Source: an uncultured Gammaproteobacteria bacterium (GTDB lineage: Bacteria; Patescibacteriota; Microgenomatia; UBA12405; JAHJSD01). Taken from it: 35,263 bases of DNA. The DNA lies in the NCBI GenBank assembly GCA_964470705.1, contig CAYYDT010000001.1:28058-63320 (forward strand). The letters are read 5' to 3'. The translations under genes were made by a program, and so were the position numbers. Within the stretch, counting starts at the first letter, position 1; each line of letters starts with the position of its first letter. The notes beneath the pieces are model-generated. The model had not been told where the DNA came from and did not search any database. It worked only from the letters and a program-made list of their open reading frames with translations. Of this stretch, positions 7,183-35,263 are shown piece by piece.

Positions 7183-7679
7183 TGTATACCGATAAAGTTT
7201 TAGACCATTTTCAGAATCCGAAAAATTACGGCGAGATTAAAAGCCCAGATGGTATTGGTAAAGTTGGTAATGTTATTTGTGGCGATGTAATGTGGCTTTA
7301 TATCAAGGTGGACAAAAATCAGTCTGGCGAAGAGATTATTGACGATATTAAATTTAAAACTTTTGGTTGTGCGGCGGCGATTGCTACCAGCAGTATGGTT
7401 ACTGAGTTAGCTAAAGGAATGACTCTGGATCAAGCAGTAAAAATCAATAACCAGGATATAGTATCTGGATTAGGTGATTTGCCGCCGGTAAAAGTTCACT
7501 GTTCTGTGTTGGCGGCTGATGCTTTGGTTGAGGCGGTTTATGATTATTTATCCCAAAATGGTAAAAAGATTGATCAAAATTTAAAAAAACGCCATCAACG
7601 GATAGTTCGTGAAAAAAATATTATTGAAGAAAAGTATGGTCAATGGCAGGAGGGAGGTGAATCTGATGACTCCACTTAA
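7182..7679 (+). CDS. iscU: Fe-S cluster scaffold, IscU / NifU N-terminal type
   Basis: Three ligand Cys contexts (VICGDVM, FGCAAAIATSS, HCSVLA). TAATG overlap with the desulfurase gene. Confidence 0.9.
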   Translation: MYTDKVLDHFQNPKNYGEIKSPDGIGKVGNVICGDVMWLYIKVDKNQSGEEIIDDIKFKTFGCAAAIATSSMVTELAKGMTLDQAVKINNQDIVSGLGDLPPVKVHCSVLAADALVEAVYDYLSQNGKKIDQNLKKRHQRIVREKNIIEEKYGQWQEGGESDDST

Positions 7680-7980
7680 ATTAACAAGCAACAATTTCCA
7701 AGAAGAGGTTTTAGATTCAGAAAAACCTGTTTTGGTTGATTTTTGGGCAATTTGGTGCGGACCCTGCCGGGTGATGGACCCGATAATTAAAGAAGTAGCA
7801 GAGGAGTTGGGGGAAAAAGTAAAAGTTGGCAAATTAAATGTCGATGAAAATCAACAACTAGCAAGTGAATACGAAGTGCAGGCTATTCCAACAGTAATAA
7901 TTTTTAAAGACGGCCAGCCGGTAGAACGGTTGATTGGTATCCAGCCGAAAGAAAAATATCTGCAATCCCTAGAGGGGTAA
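7666..7980 (+). CDS. trxA: thioredoxin
   Basis: VLVDFWAIWCGPC active site and cis-Pro context AIPTV. ATG at 7666 follows AGGGAGGTGA; the 7609 ORF start lies inside iscU. Confidence 0.9.
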   Translation: MTPLKLTSNNFQEEVLDSEKPVLVDFWAIWCGPCRVMDPIIKEVAEELGEKVKVGKLNVDENQQLASEYEVQAIPTVIIFKDGQPVERLIGIQPKEKYLQSLEG

Positions 7981-30575: not shown

Positions 30576-30604
30576 TTGACAAATAATTATATCATTATTA
30601 GTAT
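30576..30604 (+). promoter_or_regulatory. putative promoter TTGACA-N17-TAGTAT for the 30623-35263 operon
   Basis: -35 at 30576-30581 and -10 at 30599-30604. Confidence 0.45.
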
Positions 30605-30622: not shown

Positions 30623-32338
30623 ATGTCTGTTAATAAAAAATTTAAAAACCTTTTTCCTGCGCTGTTGTTTTTTGTGGTTTCTTTTTTAGTTTTTGCCGGC
30701 TCAACAAAAGCACAGAATAAAACAACTATTTATTTCTTCTGGGGTGAGGGCTGTCCCCATTGTGCTAGTCAAAAAGAGTTTATCGACCAATGGGAGGATA
30801 AATATCCAGAATTGGAAGTAAAAAAAATTAATGCTTGGGAAAATGAAGAAAGCGCTCAGTTGTATGAGCAAATGGCAAAGTCGTATGGTATTGAAGCTAG
30901 GGGAGTGCCGGCAACTTTTATCGGCGATCACGATCCGATAATTGGCTTTGCCGAATATATTGCCGGTGACATAGAAGAAAAAATAGTTGATTGTATTGAA
31001 AATGGCTGTATTGATCCTGGAGAAAAAGCCGGGGTTGACACTAATCAGCAATCTCAACAGCAAACCAACGAGGTTTGTCTTCACTTTTTCTATCAAGAAG
31101 ATTGTGACCAGTGCCGGAATGTCGAGAGTTTATTAGCAGATCTGGAAAAAGAGTATCAGATCAATATTAGTAGATATAATGTTGATCAAGACAAAGAGTT
31201 ATACCAGCAGTTTAAAGAAACATACGGTCTAGCTGGCGCCGCTCATCCGATTATTTTTATCGGCGAGCGTTATTTAATTGGAGAATCTGGAATAAAAGAT
31301 TATTTGGAAAGGGAGATCCTCCTTTGTCAGGACCAGAGGTGTCAATGCCCGGTTGAAGAAATTCAGGCCTACACACCGGCACTGCCTAAAAAAGGTGATG
31401 CTGACCCGGAAAAGGAATACCAGGTTAATGTGCCTATTTTGGGAGAAGTTAATATTTCGGAAATGTCTTTACCGGTGATGACGGGTTTAATTTCTTTTGT
31501 TGATGGTTTTAACCCCTGCTCTTTGTGGCTGATTACCTTTTTGCTGGGTATTGTTATTCACACCGGGTCAAGAAAAAAGATTGTTCTAGTCGGCTTAACA
31601 TTTCTTTTAGTCACTTCGTTTATCTACGCCTTATTTATGGTCGGCTTATTAAAAGTCTTTACTTATGTTGGTTACATGGATTGGATTAAAATAGTCATTG
31701 CTTTAGTTGCCCTGATTTTTGCTTCGGTAAATATTAAGGATTATTTTTGGTATAAAAAGGGTGTCTCGTTGACTATTTCCGACAAATTTAAACCCAAAAT
31801 TTTCAGCCAGATTAGGGGTATTATGAATAAAAAATCTGACTTAGGAATGATGGCCGGAACAGTTGTTTTAGCGATTGGGGTTGCTTTGGTTGAACTTCCC
31901 TGCACCGCCGGTTTTCCGGTAATTTGGACAAGTATTCTGGCAGATCGCAATGTTGTCGGCAGTGCTTTTTACGGCTTGTTAATTATTTATATTTTAGTAT
32001 ATTTGCTCGATGAACTAATAGTTTTTGGCAGTATAGCCCTAACTTTAAGGGTCAGTGCTTTTGAAGAGAAGCACGGCCGTACCTTAAAACTGATCGGCGG
32101 GATGATCATGATGTCTCTGGCAGTTACCTTGTTGACAAAGCCGGAATTGATGGAAAGCGTTTCTGGAACATTGGTTGTTTTCGGCGCTGCTCTTGGTTTG
32201 TCGTTTTTGATATTAATTGTCCATCGCAAGTTTTTACCTAATTTGGGTGTGGAAATTGGAACTGAAAACCTTGCTTCAGAAGATGAACAAATAGAGGATC
32301 AGCAATTCAATATTAAAAATCAAACAAAGGAGGAATAA
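30623..32338 (+). CDS. signal peptide + two thioredoxin/glutaredoxin-like domains (CPHC, CDQC) + DsbD/CcdA-like polytopic membrane domain
   Basis: 571 aa. Signal-like N-terminus ending STKAQ. FFWGEGCPHC...GVPATFIG and FFYQEDCDQC...HPIIFIG (CxxC plus cis-Pro contexts). Then about 6-7 TM segments with Pro-Cys motifs in the first and fourth helices (DGFNPCSLW, ELPCTAGFP). Confidence 0.7.
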   Translation: MSVNKKFKNLFPALLFFVVSFLVFAGSTKAQNKTTIYFFWGEGCPHCASQKEFIDQWEDKYPELEVKKINAWENEESAQLYEQMAKSYGIEARGVPATFIGDHDPIIGFAEYIAGDIEEKIVDCIENGCIDPGEKAGVDTNQQSQQQTNEVCLHFFYQEDCDQCRNVESLLADLEKEYQINISRYNVDQDKELYQQFKETYGLAGAAHPIIFIGERYLIGESGIKDYLEREILLCQDQRCQCPVEEIQAYTPALPKKGDADPEKEYQVNVPILGEVNISEMSLPVMTGLISFVDGFNPCSLWLITFLLGIVIHTGSRKKIVLVGLTFLLVTSFIYALFMVGLLKVFTYVGYMDWIKIVIALVALIFASVNIKDYFWYKKGVSLTISDKFKPKIFSQIRGIMNKKSDLGMMAGTVVLAIGVALVELPCTAGFPVIWTSILADRNVVGSAFYGLLIIYILVYLLDELIVFGSIALTLRVSAFEEKHGRTLKLIGGMIMMSLAVTLLTKPELMESVSGTLVVFGAALGLSFLILIVHRKFLPNLGVEIGTENLASEDEQIEDQQFNIKNQTKEE

Positions 32339-32341
32339 AAA

Positions 32342-32761
32342 ATGAATAACCTTAATTTTCCAGACAATTTACTTTATAACCTTGATTTTTCTTGGGTGAA
32401 AATTGATGGAGAAATAGCTACCTTAGGAATTATTAAGCCCGCTGCCGATAAAGTAAAAGAGTTTGTTTTTATAAAGTTGCCGAAAGAAGGGGAAAAGGTT
32501 GCCCGCGGTGAGACTTACACTTCATTAGAAGCGCTGAAATGGAGTGGACAGATTGCTTCCCCCTTATCTGGAGAAATCGTTGAAGTTCACCAAGAACTTT
32601 TTGACCAGCCGGCAATTATTAATCAGGACCCTTATGGTAAGGGGTGGATTGCGAAACTAAAAGTAGGAAATCCAGAGGAAATAAAAGAATTATTAGATTC
32701 AAAGCAAATTGCTCAACAGGCAAGTGGTGATTTGTCAGAGGAGGTGAATAAAAGTGAATGA
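32342..32761 (+). CDS. gcvH: glycine-cleavage H-protein-like lipoyl carrier
   Basis: 139 aa. LEALKWSGQIASPLSGEIVEV matches the H-protein lipoyl-lysine motif (E-x-x-K-x(7)-P-x-SG-x-V-x-E-V). AAGGAGGAA SD inside the end of the upstream gene. Confidence 0.8.
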   Translation: MNNLNFPDNLLYNLDFSWVKIDGEIATLGIIKPAADKVKEFVFIKLPKEGEKVARGETYTSLEALKWSGQIASPLSGEIVEVHQELFDQPAIINQDPYGKGWIAKLKVGNPEEIKELLDSKQIAQQASGDLSEEVNKSE

Positions 32762-33524
32762 CTTGAAAAGTTTACAAAGGAAAATTGACAAGTTAATCAG
32801 CCCAAAAGGTGTGCCGGTAGGGGTGAAGTTGTTGAAATCAAAAAATACTTTGAAAGAAAATGAAATTATTCCCTTGGAAAACAACCGGGCTTTGTGCCAA
32901 CTTTTAAAAATGGTTGCTGTTTATGAAAAAACCAGAGGTGTTTATGTAAATAATATTGATGCCTGTGTTGTCGGCTCATATGTTATGGGGTTTGAATTGC
33001 CTCCGGAAGATCTAAAAGACCGGTGGGTTAAAGGCTTTGGTTATACATCTGAGAAATTTGATCAGTTATCTGATCAAATTGAGGCCATGCCGCAAGATAA
33101 ATACGAAGCGGCTGTTTTCGGCCCGCTTCAAGTGTTTGACCAATTAAATTTAGATCCGGAAGCAGTAATTCTTTTAGTTAATTCCTGCCAGAGTTATCTT
33201 GCTTTGATGGGTTATTTTGATGCTACCGGAAAAAAACCGGAATCTAATTTCAACGGTCATGCCGCTTGCGAAATTATTGCTGCGGTTGCTCAAGGTAAAT
33301 CACCTTGGTTGACAATTCCCTGCGGTGGGGCAAGAAGTATTGCTGATGCTCAAGATGACGAGATTTGGCTTGGGATGACGGTTGATCATCTGAAAACTTC
33401 CATTCAACGTTTGGAAATAATGGGGTTAAAATATCCGCCGGCAATTACCCAAATGCCGGTATCAGATTTAAACCCTGATCACCCATTGACTGATTTATTA
33501 GTCAGGGACGTCGATAAAAAGTAA
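32754..33524 (+). CDS. DUF169 (COG2043) family protein
   Basis: 256 aa. GTG start after GAGGAGGTGA, 8-nt overlap with gcvH. Conserved Cys contexts (DACVVGSY, GHAACE, IPCGGARS). Family call is from memory. Confidence 0.55.
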   Translation: MNDLKSLQRKIDKLISPKGVPVGVKLLKSKNTLKENEIIPLENNRALCQLLKMVAVYEKTRGVYVNNIDACVVGSYVMGFELPPEDLKDRWVKGFGYTSEKFDQLSDQIEAMPQDKYEAAVFGPLQVFDQLNLDPEAVILLVNSCQSYLALMGYFDATGKKPESNFNGHAACEIIAAVAQGKSPWLTIPCGGARSIADAQDDEIWLGMTVDHLKTSIQRLEIMGLKYPPAITQMPVSDLNPDHPLTDLLVRDVDKK

Positions 33525-34375
33525 TGAGCCTAACAAAATGGCCTGATTGGATAAAAATAAAACCATACAATAAATCAAAATATCTAAAAACATTAAAGAT
33601 TATAAACGATAATAAATTAACAACTGTTTGTTTGGAGGCAAATTGCCCGAACAGGTACGAGTGTTTTTCTTCCGGTACGGCAACATTTATGATTTTGGGT
33701 GACACCTGCACCAGAAACTGCCGTTACTGCAATGTCAAAAAAGGTTCCCCGAACCTGGTTGACAAAAATGAGCCGAAAAGGATTGCCCAGGCAGTAAAAA
33801 AATTAAATTTAGACTATGCAGTGATCACTTGTGTTACCCGCGATGATCTGGATGACGGCGGCGCCGGCCAATTTGTTAAAACAGTTGATGAAATAAAAAA
33901 AGTTAAACCAGGTTGTAAAATAGAATTGCTGGTTTCGGACTTAAAAGGAGACAAAAAATCGCTTGCCAAACTGCTGGTTGCAAACCCGGATGTTTTCAAT
34001 CATAATATTGAAGTAGTTGAATACTTATTTTCTTTATTAAGACCGGGAGGCGATTATCAGCGGTCAGTTAATTTGCTGGCTGCGGCGAAAGAAATTCAAC
34101 CTAAGATTGTTTTGAAATCCGGTTTAATGATTGGTCTAGGTGAGACAAAAGAACAAATTATCAGGACTTTTAAGGATCTAAAAGCAGCTGGCTGCCAAGT
34201 ATTAACTGTTGGCCAATATTTACCGCCGACACCGGCACATGTTCCTGTAAAAAAGTTTTACCAGCCGGAAGAGTTCGAAAGTTTAAAAAAGGAAGCAAAT
34301 TCTTTAGGTTTTGCTAAAGTGGAAGCAGGACCATTAGTAAGAAGTTCATATCGAGCGATGGAGGTGATTAATTAA
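33524..34375 (+). CDS. lipA: lipoyl synthase
   Basis: Auxiliary-cluster CLEANCPNRYEC and radical-SAM CTRNCRYC motifs, and C-terminal RSSYRA. TAATG overlaps at both ends. Confidence 0.92.
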   Translation: MSLTKWPDWIKIKPYNKSKYLKTLKIINDNKLTTVCLEANCPNRYECFSSGTATFMILGDTCTRNCRYCNVKKGSPNLVDKNEPKRIAQAVKKLNLDYAVITCVTRDDLDDGGAGQFVKTVDEIKKVKPGCKIELLVSDLKGDKKSLAKLLVANPDVFNHNIEVVEYLFSLLRPGGDYQRSVNLLAAAKEIQPKIVLKSGLMIGLGETKEQIIRTFKDLKAAGCQVLTVGQYLPPTPAHVPVKKFYQPEEFESLKKEANSLGFAKVEAGPLVRSSYRAMEVIN

Positions 34376-34914
34376 TGAAAAAAAACAAACTTTATTTTCT
34401 GATTTTAATAACCGTTTTTCTCGGCTTTTCGGCTATCTATATGGGGTACCTTATTTATATGGAAACCCAATCCGCACCTAAAATTGCCGGCGAAATGGAA
34501 GTAGCCGATCAACCGCTGATAACTGGGTTCCAGTCGGAAGAAGACGCGCTAGTTAAGGCGCCAAAAATTATTGATGCCGGGATCGGGTCTATTGAATTGA
34601 CAATGGACAAGGAGGCTTATATTTCTCATGAAGACGTTGAAATGACTCTTAACTTGGAAGTTGACAATGAGATTGAAAACGCAGAAATAAGAATTACTGG
34701 TATTAAGCCTCACCAAACTGCCTACATTAGGGAGACAAAAGTTGTCGATTTAAAAGAAGGTGAAAATACAATTGTTATTGTTGTAAAAGCTCCTTCATGT
34801 ACTAGCGGCTGCGGTGGTGTGTATCCCGGGCCGTATGACATTGAGGCAGAGGTGTTCGTTGATGAAGGTTTAGCTGGTCAGACGCTAACAACAATAACTT
34901 TAGCGGAAGAATAA
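34375..34914 (+). CDS. membrane-anchored hypothetical protein with SCTSGCGG (CxxxC) motif
   Basis: 179 aa. N-terminal TM helix and an acidic, predicted beta-rich ectodomain. Embedded between lipA and the ligase gene. Confidence 0.6.
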   Translation: MKKNKLYFLILITVFLGFSAIYMGYLIYMETQSAPKIAGEMEVADQPLITGFQSEEDALVKAPKIIDAGIGSIELTMDKEAYISHEDVEMTLNLEVDNEIENAEIRITGIKPHQTAYIRETKVVDLKEGENTIVIVVKAPSCTSGCGGVYPGPYDIEAEVFVDEGLAGQTLTTITLAEE

Positions 34915-35263
34915 ATGGACAGGGTACGACTTTTAAAATTGATAAAAGACAGCGGACCGATGCAGATGGCTGTTGATGAGGCAATAGCTTTAAGTTGTGC
35001 ACAGGGAAAGGTTTTGCCCACCTTGCGCTTTTATATTTTTGACCCTCCGGCAATAACTCTCGGACACAGCCAGTTGATCGATCAGTTTAATTTAAGCGCA
35101 GTTGAGAAAAAAGGTTTTCACTTGGTGAGAAGAATTACCGGCGGGACAGCTGTTTTGCATAAAAACGACTTAGTTTATTCATTGGTCATGCCGGAAAATT
35201 TTTTGCCTGAAAAAGTGGTTGATGCTTACCGGTTTTTAAGCGACGGTTTAGTTGAAGGGTTGA
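34915..35263 (+). CDS. lipoate-protein ligase / octanoyltransferase (LplA-LipM family), 3' end cut by window edge
   Basis: Frame open to the window end: PTLRFYIFDPPAITLGHSQ...VRRITGGTAVLH is the BPL/LplA/LipB catalytic-domain N-terminus. ATG immediately follows the upstream TAA. Confidence 0.8.
   Translation, partial: MDRVRLLKLIKDSGPMQMAVDEAIALSCAQGKVLPTLRFYIFDPPAITLGHSQLIDQFNLSAVEKKGFHLVRRITGGTAVLHKNDLVYSLVMPENFLPEKVVDAYRFLSDGLVEGL

What the first reader, a model, noticed from the sequence alone, without database searches (positions are those of the whole stretch)
30623..32338. Unusual single-chain architecture: signal peptide, two different CxxC thioredoxin-fold domains, then a two-Cys polytopic domain
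Domain 1 (about aa 33-125) has CPHC with a VP cis-Pro context. Domain 2 (about aa 150-235) has CDQC with an HP context. Additional Cys pairs sit between and after them (DCIENGC, CQDQRCQC).

The membrane part shows pseudo-symmetry with Pro-Cys in helix 1 (NPCSLW) and helix 4 (LPCTAGFP). That is the layout that defines the DsbD superfamily. With an N-terminal signal sequence, both soluble domains are predicted to be extracytoplasmic.

The result is a DsbD-like relay with the carrier domains arranged differently from DsbD (alpha-beta-gamma) or CcdA (membrane domain only).
Basis: partly seen in the sequence, partly recalled or inferred. Interest (0 to 1): 0.6.

Follow-up and report, generated by a model that had tools for sequence, protein, structure and literature searches.

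The report
Exported double-thioredoxin CcdA-like membrane relay
This gene encodes a membrane protein that probably passes thiol reducing power from inside the cell to two thioredoxin-like domains on the outside, and it sits in an operon with a lipoic-acid carrier protein that has no classical lipoate enzyme to serve, which suggests an undescribed electron source.

Summary
ORF 30623-32338 (+) encodes a 571-aa protein with four parts:
- a cleavable-looking signal peptide;
- two glutaredoxin/thioredoxin-fold domains (CPHC with a VP cis-Pro; CDQC with an HP cis-Pro);
- a 7-helix membrane domain with Pro-Cys in TM1 (C299) and TM4 (C427);
- a short cytoplasmic tail.

All six candidate redox Cys are invariant in 40 of 40 aligned homologues. 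Both membrane Cys are invariant in 120 of 120.

The membrane half hits no Pfam or NCBIfam model, and Foldseek did not retrieve CcdA. Profile-profile comparison links it through stand-alone intermediates to canonical CcdA (99.9%, then 98.2%, with both Cys in register). It is therefore a divergent DsbD-superfamily member with a new domain order.

In the closest relatives, labelled CPR bacteria and DPANN archaea, the gene is almost always followed by gcvH, lipA and lplA. All 17 cluster-bearing genomes tested lack GcvT and E2.

Best reading: a CcdA-type trans-membrane thiol relay whose cytoplasmic partner is probably lipoyl-GcvH. Direction and partner are inferred, not shown.

This scan has already noted the same cassette at least 22 times on other DNA. 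I found no paper describing it.

The parts
30576..30604 (+). Promoter-like site (TTGACA-17-TAGTAT) 19 nt upstream of the ATG.
   Evidence: It matches 10 of 12 positions, but the number of such sites in the region is not above the shuffle expectation, so this is weak.
30623..32338 (+). Whole gene: signal peptide, Trx-fold domain 1, Trx-fold domain 2, and a CcdA-like 7-TM domain (571 aa, 12 Cys, pI 4.9).
30623..30712 (+). Signal peptide, aa 1-30 (KKFK start, hydrophobic core, STKA|Q cleavage-like site).
   Evidence: Read directly from the sequence. A30 is at least 90% conserved. Helix at 6-24. Lys+Arg = 3 at the N-terminus.
30719..31027 (+). Domain 1, aa 33-135. Grx/Trx fold with C44-P-H-C47, cis-Pro P96 and a C-terminal C124-x4-C129.
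   Evidence: Pfam Thioredoxin_2. pLDDT about 90. Invariant Cys. Free exported paralogues (44-61% identity) lie in sister operons.
31064..31357 (+). Domain 2, aa 148-245. Grx/Trx fold with C161-D-Q-C164, cis-Pro P209, C152, and C235-x4-C240-x-C242. It is the membrane-proximal domain.
   Evidence: Pfam Glutaredoxin/Thioredoxin. It is retained in one-domain homologues that lack domain 1.
31469..32233 (+). Membrane domain, aa 283-537. It has seven predicted helices. C299 (codon 31517-31519) lies in TM1 and C427 (codon 31901-31903) in TM4.
32234..32338 (+). Acidic, low-confidence C-terminal tail, predicted cytoplasmic, plus the stop codon.
   Evidence: pLDDT below 55. Topology argument.
32342..32761 (+). 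gcvH: lipoyl carrier H-protein (139 aa, no Cys, no signal peptide, lipoyl-Lys in the motif E-A-L-K-W). It starts 3 nt after the stop of the membrane protein gene.
   Evidence: Pfam GCV_H 8.3e-35. NF002270 scores 121 bits against a cutoff of 117. The motif E..KW.G...SP..G is conserved in 26 cluster GcvHs. It lies immediately downstream in 27 of the 31 loci labelled CPR or DPANN.
32754..33524 (+). DUF169 protein (256 aa, 5 Cys). It overlaps both gcvH and lipA.
   Evidence: Pfam DUF169 1.6e-28. No solved relative. Also present in the cluster in L020 and L034, and next to it in L012, L015 and L018.
33524..34375 (+). lipA, lipoyl synthase.
   Evidence: TIGR00510 scores 349.7 bits against a cutoff of 310.
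34375..34914 (+). Anchored or exported acidic beta-rich protein with a single Cys pair (SCTSGC).
   Evidence: Weak Ig-like Pfam hit. Homologues sit between lipA and lplA in L015, L017 and L018.
34915..35263 (+). lplA-type lipoate/octanoate-protein ligase. It is cut by the contig end and continues on contig C12.
   Evidence: Pfam LplA-B_cat 8.4e-18. C12 begins with the same 18 residues.
7609..7980 (+). Canonical cytoplasmic thioredoxin (WCGPC). It is the conventional candidate donor for a CcdA-type relay.
   Evidence: PF00085 1.6e-32 at G000:C1:35732-36025, which maps to window 7675-7968. Sequence.

Best explanation
The protein is a single-chain trans-membrane thiol-disulfide relay of the DsbD/CcdA kind.

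Proposed path:
1. A pair of cysteines buried in the membrane (C299 in TM1, C427 in TM4) alternates between dithiol and disulfide. It carries two electrons across the membrane.
2. The pair passes them to the membrane-proximal Grx-like domain 2 (C161/C164).
3. Domain 2 passes them to the distal domain 1 (C44/C47).
4. Domain 1 acts on exported target proteins. In sister operons the same step is served by free exported copies of domain 1.

The flow is most likely reductive, from cytoplasm to outside.

In this subfamily the cytoplasmic partner is probably the dihydrolipoyl arm of the co-translated orphan H-protein (GcvH). LipA and LplA, encoded in the same operon, make its cofactor. In many sister operons a CoA-disulfide-reductase-like NAD(P)H flavoprotein is also present and could recharge it.

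Shown here: the architecture, the conservation, the outside location of the Trx domains, homology to CcdA, the operon linkage, and the orphan status of GcvH.

Inferred: the order of transfer, the direction of flow, and GcvH as partner.
For: Architecture and conservation:
- All six candidate redox Cys and both cis-Pro are invariant.

Homology of the membrane domain:
- Its profile (A2) matches stand-alone 221-262-aa proteins (A4) at 99.9% probability, E 2.8e-37.
- A4 matches canonical CcdA (A3) at 98.2%, E 5.8e-14, with both Pro-Cys motifs aligned.
- A4 members reach the Pfam DsbD_TM gathering score: 31.3, 29.5 and 27.2 bits against a cutoff of 27.1.

Topology:
- Signal peptide plus a positive-inside pattern.

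Order of the two soluble domains:
- One-domain homologues keep domain 2.
- Domain 1 has free exported paralogues directly after gcvH in at least 16 loci.
- The tandem Trx unit resembles two-domain protein disulfide oxidoreductases, the AhpF N-terminal domain and PDI.

Partner:
- gcvH is immediately downstream in 27 of the 31 closest loci that carry CPR or DPANN labels, usually with lipA and lplA.
- In this window the genes are 3 nt apart, and the downstream genes overlap one another.
- GcvH has no Cys, so its only thiols would be lipoyl thiols.
- GcvT is absent in 0 of 17 and E2 in 0 of 17 cluster-bearing genomes. In this genome GcvP is also absent and GcvH is the only lipoyl domain.
- Sister operons carry a CoADR-like flavoprotein.

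Established knowledge (my own, not tested here):
- Dihydrolipoamide (about -0.29 V) is as reducing as thioredoxin (about -0.27 V).
- In Mycobacterium tuberculosis a lipoyl protein (DlaT) reduces the CxxC protein AhpD.
Against: - No biochemical data exist for any member of this family.
- Direct tests against CcdA fail. There is no Pfam or NCBIfam hit for the membrane half. Direct hhalign against CcdA gives 0.57% probability. Foldseek finds no significant PDB match and no CcdA in the top 50. No internal repeat is detectable.
- A thioredoxin is encoded in this window. Thioredoxin reductase is present in 15 of 17 cluster-bearing genomes. The conventional donor is therefore usually available, and GcvH is not needed simply to replace it.
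- The wider membrane family occurs in 81 of 201 genomes sampled from this phylum, but GcvH occurs in only 8. Chloroflexota members have no gcvH nearby. The GcvH link is therefore a subfamily trait.
- This genome has no homologue of the CoADR-like flavoprotein, so what would reduce lipoyl-GcvH here is unknown.
- CPHC is also the motif of the oxidase DsbA.
Confidence: 0.55

Rival explanations
1. The same CcdA-type reductive relay, but fed by ordinary cytoplasmic thioredoxin. On this reading the gcvH-lipA-lplA neighbours are linked for another reason. For example, lipoyl-GcvH may be a separate cytoplasmic antioxidant or thiol buffer that is co-regulated with envelope thiol maintenance.
For: - Every characterised DsbD, CcdA and ScsB protein takes electrons from thioredoxin (PMC3322552).
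- A WCGPC thioredoxin lies at window 7609-7980.
- Thioredoxin reductase is present in 15 of 17 cluster-bearing genomes.
- Most members of the wider family have no GcvH.
- GcvH-L in Staphylococcus aureus has an oxidative-stress role without any membrane relay (PMC12440151).
Against: - Adjacency is very tight and conserved across loci labelled as bacteria and as archaea. Here the stop-to-start gap is 3 nt.
- No thioredoxin-reductase-like gene was found in this genome, which is 91% complete.
- Nothing else in these genomes can use lipoyl-GcvH.
Confidence: 0.2
2. The relay runs in the oxidising direction. It would be a quinone-independent substitute for DsbA/DsbB. Exported protein thiols are oxidised by domain 1 (the DsbA-like CPHC motif). 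Electrons then pass inward through the membrane Cys pair to oxidised lipoyl-GcvH, and on to NAD+ or another acceptor.
For: - CPHC is the DsbA active-site motif (established knowledge).
- Lipoyl proteins are normally re-oxidised by flavoproteins with NAD+ (established knowledge).
- From general knowledge, not tested here: the carriers are small-genome, mostly anaerobic lineages that generally lack quinones and DsbB/VKOR.
Against: - Thermodynamically uphill. Lipoamide (about -0.29 V) is a much poorer oxidant than typical structural disulfides.
- All known DsbD-superfamily members act reductively (PMC3322552).
- Domain 1 lacks the helical insert of DsbA and has a Grx-like fold.
- The co-encoded flavoprotein in sister loci is of the CoA-disulfide-reductase type, not a lipoamide dehydrogenase.
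Confidence: 0.12
3. The membrane domain moves a thiol-bound cargo rather than only electrons. The cargo could be sulfane sulfur or persulfide, selenium, or a thiophilic metal(loid). The exported Trx domains would capture or release it, and GcvH would act in a sulfur-relay network.
For: - Sister operons insert TusA, a YeeE/YedE-type sulfur transporter and DsrE-DsrE-DsrH between gcvH and lipA.
- Lipoate-binding proteins work with TusA and DsrE in the sHdr-LbpA sulfur-oxidation system (PMC6067878, PMC11094781).
- Chloroflexota members often sit next to an ArsR-type regulator and a Cys-containing permease.
- The DsbD clan also contains transporters (SfLAP and DsbD_2 hits).
Against: - The sulfur-relay genes are optional and are absent from this window.
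- HdrB-type CCG domains are absent in 15 of 17 cluster-bearing genomes.
- Two CxxC/cis-Pro thioredoxin folds in series are the signature of electron relays.
- The closest recognisable relatives of the membrane domain are CcdA proteins.
Confidence: 0.08

Closest known systems
CcdA (stand-alone six-helix DsbD-superfamily electron transporter, Pfam DsbD_TM PF02683; for example Bacillus and Thermus CcdA)
   Same: - Two membrane-embedded Cys, each after Pro, in TM1 and TM4.
- N-terminus outside.
- Full-length collinear profile alignment through intermediates, with both Cys in register.
- Hands electrons to exported thioredoxin-fold proteins (PMC3322552).
   Different: - So divergent that PF02683 does not hit it at E <= 10.
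- Has a seventh helix and a cytoplasmic tail.
- Has a long, conserved, Lys-rich cytoplasmic loop (NIKDYFWYKKG...KPKIF) between TM3 and TM4.
- Carries two exported Trx-fold domains fused at the N-terminus.
- Coexists with canonical CcdA in Chloroflexota genomes, so it is a separate paralogous family.
DsbD and ScsB (alpha-beta-gamma three-domain reductant transporters of proteobacteria)
   Same: A single polypeptide that combines the two-Cys membrane core with exported redox-active carrier domains. There are three Cys pairs in series.
   Different: - DsbD order is Ig-like alpha, then an 8-TM beta domain, then a C-terminal Trx gamma.
- Here both carriers are Grx/Trx folds, both are N-terminal to a 7-TM core, and there is no Ig-like alpha and no C-terminal domain.
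- The known donor of DsbD is thioredoxin. Here the operon partner is lipoyl-GcvH.
Mycobacterium tuberculosis Lpd-DlaT-AhpD-AhpC relay (my own knowledge, not tested here)
   Same: A protein-bound dihydrolipoyl group serves as reductant for a CxxC thiol-disulfide protein outside classical 2-oxoacid metabolism.
   Different: - That relay is entirely cytoplasmic.
- It uses the E2 of pyruvate dehydrogenase and a true lipoamide dehydrogenase.
- It has no membrane step and no dedicated orphan H-protein.
sHdr-LbpA sulfur-oxidation system (PMC6067878, PMC11094781)
   Same: - A GcvH-like lipoyl carrier with its own ligase and lipoyl synthase genes, used outside glycine cleavage.
- Sister operons share TusA, DsrE-type and YeeE-type genes.
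   Different: - No sHdr: CCG domains are absent in 15 of 17 genomes.
- The carrier scores as GcvH.
- LipA is the classical type, not LipS1/S2.
- Neither paper mentions a CcdA-like membrane protein.
Archaeal/Aquifex protein disulfide oxidoreductase (PDO, PDB 1a8l) and the AhpF N-terminal domain
   Same: Two consecutive thioredoxin-fold units, each with a CxxC. These are the top Foldseek matches of the full model.
   Different: - The matches are weak (E about 1e-3, TM-score 0.26-0.34 when normalised to the target).
- Those proteins are soluble and cytoplasmic and are not fused to a membrane relay.

Membership tests
DsbD superfamily (DsbD / CcdA / ScsB membrane core) | Two conserved membrane-embedded cysteines, one in TM1 and one in TM4, each in a Pro-Cys context. 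| tested here: met
   P298-C299 and P426-C427 lie at helix breaks in TM1 and TM4. C299, C427 and P298 are conserved in 120 of 120 and P426 in 111 of 120.
DsbD superfamily (DsbD / CcdA / ScsB membrane core) | Direct match to the curated family model (Pfam DsbD_TM PF02683, or DsbD_2). | tested here: not met
   The membrane half has no Pfam hit at E <= 10. PF02683 finds nothing in this genome. Only 2 of 42 members hit DsbD_2, weakly. Direct hhalign against CcdA gives 0.57% probability.
DsbD superfamily (DsbD / CcdA / ScsB membrane core) | Homology demonstrable through intermediate sequences. | tested here: met
   A2 against A4: 99.9%, E 2.8e-37. A4 against canonical CcdA: 98.2%, E 5.8e-14, with both Cys aligned. 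Three A4 members score above the DsbD_TM gathering cutoff.
DsbD superfamily (DsbD / CcdA / ScsB membrane core) | N-terminus outside, antiparallel Cys-bearing helices, and a 3+3 inverted repeat. | tested here: inconclusive
   The positive-inside pattern fits N-out with TM1 running out-to-in and TM4 running in-to-out. No internal repeat is detectable by hhalign; only the two Cys columns pair, and not significantly.
DsbD superfamily (DsbD / CcdA / ScsB membrane core) | Fold like the solved CcdA structures. | tested here: inconclusive
   Foldseek of the membrane-only model (pLDDT 76, pTM 0.72) against the PDB gave no match at E <= 0.001 and no CcdA in the top 50.
DsbD superfamily (DsbD / CcdA / ScsB membrane core) | Transfers electrons from a cytoplasmic dithiol donor to an exported thioredoxin-fold acceptor. 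| not testable with these tools
   This needs biochemistry or genetics.
DsbD proper (alpha-beta-gamma) | N-terminal Ig-like alpha domain, 8-TM beta domain, C-terminal Trx gamma domain. | tested here: not met
   The N-terminal part is two Grx/Trx folds. Seven helices are predicted, followed by a short disordered tail.
CcdA proper | Membrane domain only, six TM helices, about 220-260 aa. | tested here: not met
   The protein is 571 aa with two fused exported domains and a seventh helix. Stand-alone relatives of 221-262 aa do exist in the phylum.
Thioredoxin-fold oxidoreductases (Grx-like), domains 1 and 2 | CxxC at the start of helix 1, a cis-Pro loop before strand 3, and family-model scores above cutoff. 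| tested here: met
   Thioredoxin_2 scores 35.9 against a cutoff of 27. Glutaredoxin scores 39.1 against 22.9. Thioredoxin scores 31.3 against 23.5. The secondary-structure order and pLDDT of about 90 fit. The CxxC motifs and both cis-Pro are invariant.
Glycine cleavage system (for the neighbouring GcvH) | GcvH accompanied by the T- and P-proteins. | tested here: not met
   GcvT and GcvP are absent from this genome. GcvT is absent in 0 of 17 and E2 in 0 of 17 cluster-bearing genomes.
sHdr-LbpA sulfur oxidation | Heterodisulfide-reductase-like genes (HdrB CCG domains) next to the lipoyl carrier. | tested here: not met
   The CCG domain is absent from this genome and from 15 of 17 cluster-bearing genomes.

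The most novel reading that the evidence does not exclude
Protein-bound lipoate on an orphan H-protein is the dedicated cytoplasmic redox partner of a CcdA-type membrane relay. This would be a thioredoxin-independent way to move thiol reducing power across the membrane, and a new physiological role for lipoate. It would be shared, probably by gene transfer, between ultra-small CPR bacteria and DPANN archaea that have no classical lipoate-dependent enzyme.
Probability: 0.45. Interest if true: 0.8.

Novelty: new variant of a known kind. Interest (0 to 1): 0.62.

Why it matters
DsbD, CcdA and ScsB are the only known routes for delivering reducing power to the cell envelope, and all three are fed by thioredoxin.

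This family adds a fourth, widespread architecture: Trx-Trx-membrane core. It has more than 2,500 sequence clusters and occurs in at least 585 species genomes, yet no curated family model recognises its membrane half.

In its closest subfamily it is genetically locked to an H-protein with its own lipoylation enzymes, in genomes that have no glycine cleavage system and no 2-oxoacid dehydrogenase.

If lipoyl-GcvH really feeds the relay, two things would follow. It would explain why minimal, host-dependent cells keep an expensive cofactor pathway. It would also define a new envelope redox system that can be tested directly with purified proteins.

Tried and rejected
1. Direct family assignment of the membrane half failed. 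Pfam at E <= 10 gave nothing. NCBIfam gave only Trx/Grx hits. PF02683 found nothing in the whole genome.
2. Direct profile-profile comparison with eight canonical CcdA sequences was not significant, at 0.57% probability. It became convincing only after adding stand-alone intermediates.
4. The internal 3+3 repeat test by hhalign was negative.
5. A profile search of PDB sequences found only Trx/Grx/DsbA-like chains.
6. I tested whether GcvH replaces a missing thioredoxin system. This was rejected as a general rule, because thioredoxin reductase is present in 15 of 17 cluster-bearing genomes. It is absent here and in one other genome.
7. I tested whether GcvH is linked to the whole membrane family. 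This was rejected. GcvH occurs in 8 of 201 genomes sampled from the phylum, against 81 with the family, and is absent near Chloroflexota members.
8. I considered an sHdr-type sulfur oxidation system and rejected it.
9. Base composition gives no sign of recent acquisition.
10. Literature searches found no paper that links GcvH with CcdA or DsbD.
12. Model coordinates are not exposed, so I could not measure Cys-Cys distances or do a direct superposition on CcdA.
Full report
**Observation**

The ORF is at exactly 30623-32338 on the + strand and encodes 571 aa. The reverse strand is full of stops.
- C44/C47 (CPHC) with V95-P96.
- C161/C164 (CDQC) with H208-P209.
- C124/C129 (DCIENGC), C152, and C235/C240/C242 (CQDQRCQC).
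- P298-C299 (NPCSLW) and P426-C427 (LPCTAGFP).

The gene is real and conserved. A protein search returned more than 2,584 relatives at E <= 0.001, the nearest at 77% identity. A scan of one genome per species found at least 585 species with a relative.

**Soluble part**

Pfam places Thioredoxin_2 at aa 29-104 and Glutaredoxin/Thioredoxin at aa 146-217, all above their curated cutoffs. NCBIfam gives only sub-threshold Grx/Trx hits.

AlphaFold2, run with a 40-sequence alignment, predicts two beta-alpha-beta-alpha-beta-beta-alpha units at pLDDT of about 90. They are separated by a disordered Gln-rich linker (aa 142-148).

Foldseek against the PDB ranks two-domain disulfide oxidoreductases highest: ERp72 a0a, Pyrococcus and Aquifex PDO, the AhpF N-terminal domain, and PDI. 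The scores are weak.

Conservation is strong. In a 40-sequence alignment C44, C47, C161, C164, C235, C240, P96 and P209 are invariant. C124, C129, C152 and C242 are at least 92% conserved.

The two domains are not equivalent. Of 120 homologues, 24 lack domain 1 entirely but keep domain 2 with its extra Cys. Domain 1 also has free, exported paralogues of 145-175 aa at 44-61% identity, and these are encoded a few genes downstream in sister operons. This fits a model in which domain 2 is the constant, membrane-proximal carrier and domain 1 is a fused copy of the diffusible, substrate-facing thioredoxin.

**Membrane part**

The model has seven helices. TM1 and TM4 are each interrupted next to their cysteine: H283-295|H298-314 and H406-428|H430-441. 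C299, C427 and P298 are invariant in 120 of 120 homologues.

Direct family assignment fails:
- No Pfam model hits the membrane half even at E <= 10.
- PF02683 (DsbD_TM) finds nothing in the genome.
- Of 42 family members, only 2 touch DsbD_2 and 1 touches SfLAP, all weakly.
- hhalign against eight canonical CcdA proteins is not significant at 0.57% probability, although the alignment is collinear and pairs both Pro-Cys motifs.

The link becomes firm through intermediates. Searching 201 genomes of the same phylum with the membrane-domain profile found the family in 81 of them. The hits included many stand-alone proteins of 221-262 aa.
- These intermediates match the query family at 99.9% probability, E 2.8e-37.
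- They match canonical CcdA at 98.2%, E 5.8e-14, over 211 columns with both Cys aligned.
- Three of them exceed the DsbD_TM gathering score.

The membrane domain is therefore a divergent member of the DsbD/CcdA superfamily. Two tests gave no support. Foldseek of the membrane-only model returned no significant PDB match and no CcdA. No internal repeat is detectable at sequence level.

**Topology**

The N-terminus has a Lys-rich start, a hydrophobic core and a nearly invariant Ala at position 30.

Across 40 homologues, the loops predicted to face the cytoplasm carry on average 3.2, 9.4 and 2.7 Lys+Arg. The loops predicted to face outside carry 0.1, 0.3 and 0.5.

This gives N-out, seven TM helices, C-in. 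TM1 enters from outside and TM4 runs the other way, as in CcdA. The mature soluble part is strongly acidic (pI 4.3). The refutation condition "CxxC domains in the cytoplasm" is not met.

**Distribution**

Source names and record titles for relatives include Patescibacteria/CPR groups, DPANN archaea (Woesearchaeota, Nanoarchaeota, Pacearchaeota, Undinarchaeota), Altiarchaeota, Bipolaricaulota and many Chloroflexota. Several titles are plainly unreliable bin labels.

Chloroflexota genomes carry canonical CcdA as well. The family is therefore a separate paralogue and not just the local CcdA.

This genome is 632 kb in 91 contigs and 91% complete. It has a second, one-Trx member on contig C87.

**Context**

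I found this from the sequence before consulting the scan's notes. Downstream, with a 3-nt gap and then overlapping starts, lie the following genes:
- gcvH;
- a DUF169 gene;
- lipA;
- an anchored Cys-pair protein;
- an lplA-type ligase.

The ligase is cut by the contig end and continues on contig C12.

Among the 80 best loci from species genomes, 31 carry CPR or DPANN record labels. In 27 of these gcvH lies directly downstream, and lipA and lplA usually follow where the contig is long enough.

Between gcvH and lipA the operons vary. They hold one or more of:
- a free exported Trx;
- a CoA-disulfide-reductase-like flavoprotein;
- a TusA-YeeE-DsrE-DsrE-DsrH set;
- DUF169.

The Chloroflexota members show none of this.

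The cluster GcvH has no signal peptide, no cysteine, and a conserved E..KW.G...SP..G lipoyl-lysine motif.

GcvH is an orphan:
- This genome has no GcvT and no GcvP, and no other lipoyl domain.
- Of 17 cluster-bearing genomes, none has GcvT and none has a 2-oxoacid dehydrogenase E2.
- HdrB-type domains are absent in 15 of 17, so this is not the sHdr-LbpA system.

**Limits of the GcvH link**

- Thioredoxin reductase is present in 15 of the 17 genomes. It is absent here and in the genome of L020.
- A canonical WCGPC thioredoxin lies at window 7609-7980.
- In a 201-genome sample of the phylum, GcvH occurs in only 8 genomes, against 81 with the membrane family.

GcvH is therefore a partner of one subfamily. 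It is not a general feature of the family, and it is not a simple replacement for a lost thioredoxin system.

**Mechanism**

The best-supported reading is a CcdA-type relay: cytoplasmic dithiol donor, then C299/C427, then C161/C164, then C44/C47, then exported targets.

The reductive direction is favoured for three reasons. All characterised superfamily members work that way (PMC3322552). Dihydrolipoamide is as reducing as thioredoxin (established values). Sister operons also encode an NAD(P)H disulfide-reductase-type flavoprotein.

GcvH as donor is inferred from gene order and from the absence of any other use for it.

Rivals are:
- thioredoxin as the true donor;
- an oxidising, DsbB-like role (the CPHC motif);
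- transfer of sulfur or another thiol-bound cargo (the TusA/YeeE/DsrE variants, and the ArsR/permease neighbours in Chloroflexota).

**Novelty**

Neither Pfam nor NCBIfam models the membrane half. Sources name the proteins inconsistently: TraF, glutaredoxin, CcdA family, or hypothetical.

Full-text searches found no paper joining GcvH with CcdA or DsbD. The sHdr-LbpA papers do not mention such a membrane protein.

The scan's own notes show that the same cassette has been flagged at least 22 times in other genomes, with the same tentative reading. Those are unchecked AI notes and I do not count them as evidence.

I class the protein as a new variant of a known kind. The lipoyl-donor idea is the more novel reading and remains unproven.

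Noticed in passing
window 32754-33524: A DUF169 gene (256 aa, 5 Cys) overlaps both gcvH and lipA. It has no solved relative by sequence. It also sits in or beside the cluster in L020, L034, L012, L015 and L018. Its role is unknown; it may be an adaptor or reductase for lipoyl-GcvH in operons that lack the flavoprotein.
   Followed up: partly
window 34375-34914: An anchored, acidic, beta-rich protein with a single Cys pair (SCTSGC) lies between lipA and lplA. Homologues at 43-47% identity occupy the same position in L015, L017 and L018. It could be an exported acceptor of the relay, by analogy with the Ig-like alpha domain of DsbD.
   Followed up: partly
window 34915-35263 and G000 contig C12:1-510: The lplA-type ligase is cut by the end of contig C1. 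Contig C12 starts with the same 18 residues and carries the rest of the gene, so C1 and C12 are adjacent in the genome.
   Followed up: yes
G000 contig C87:581-1666 (locus L082): A second family member with one CPHC Trx domain plus the membrane core (motifs NPCAMW and ELICSAGLP), about 32% identical. It is truncated by the contig end and is convergent with the C-terminal fragment of an FAD protein.
   Followed up: partly
whole genome G000; window 7609-7980: A canonical WCGPC thioredoxin is present. No thioredoxin-reductase-like gene was found in the 91%-complete assembly (PF07992 and TIGR01292 searches). The genome of L020, which shares the DUF169 operon variant, also lacks it.
   Followed up: partly
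loci L002, L003, L005, L007, L011, L015, L017, L018, L024, L034: Sister operons carry TusA, a YeeE/YedE-type sulfur transporter, two DsrE-like genes and one DsrH-like gene, usually between gcvH and lipA (upstream of the gene in L034). Some also carry a DGC-domain protein. This resembles the accessory genes of sHdr-LbpA clusters but lacks sHdr.
   Followed up: partly
loci L094-L105 (12 genomes of the same phylum): Stand-alone membrane proteins of 221-262 aa with DSxNPCAI and E(L/F)PC(T/S)G motifs and the same NIKDYFW loop. They bridge this family to Pfam DsbD_TM and SfLAP and may be the ancestral unfused form.
   Followed up: yes
loci L025, L028, L030, L031, L033 and L035-L080 (excluding L079): The one-Trx members in this group, mostly labelled Chloroflexota, have no gcvH nearby. 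In 12 of the 50 loci in this group an ArsR-type regulator is adjacent, and in 9 of 50 a roughly 440-aa Cys-containing permease. These genomes also have canonical CcdA elsewhere.
   Followed up: partly
window 30576-30604: A TTGACA-17-TAGTAT promoter-like site lies in the 59-nt gap before the gene, so the operon may start here. The count of such sites in the region is not above chance.
   Followed up: no
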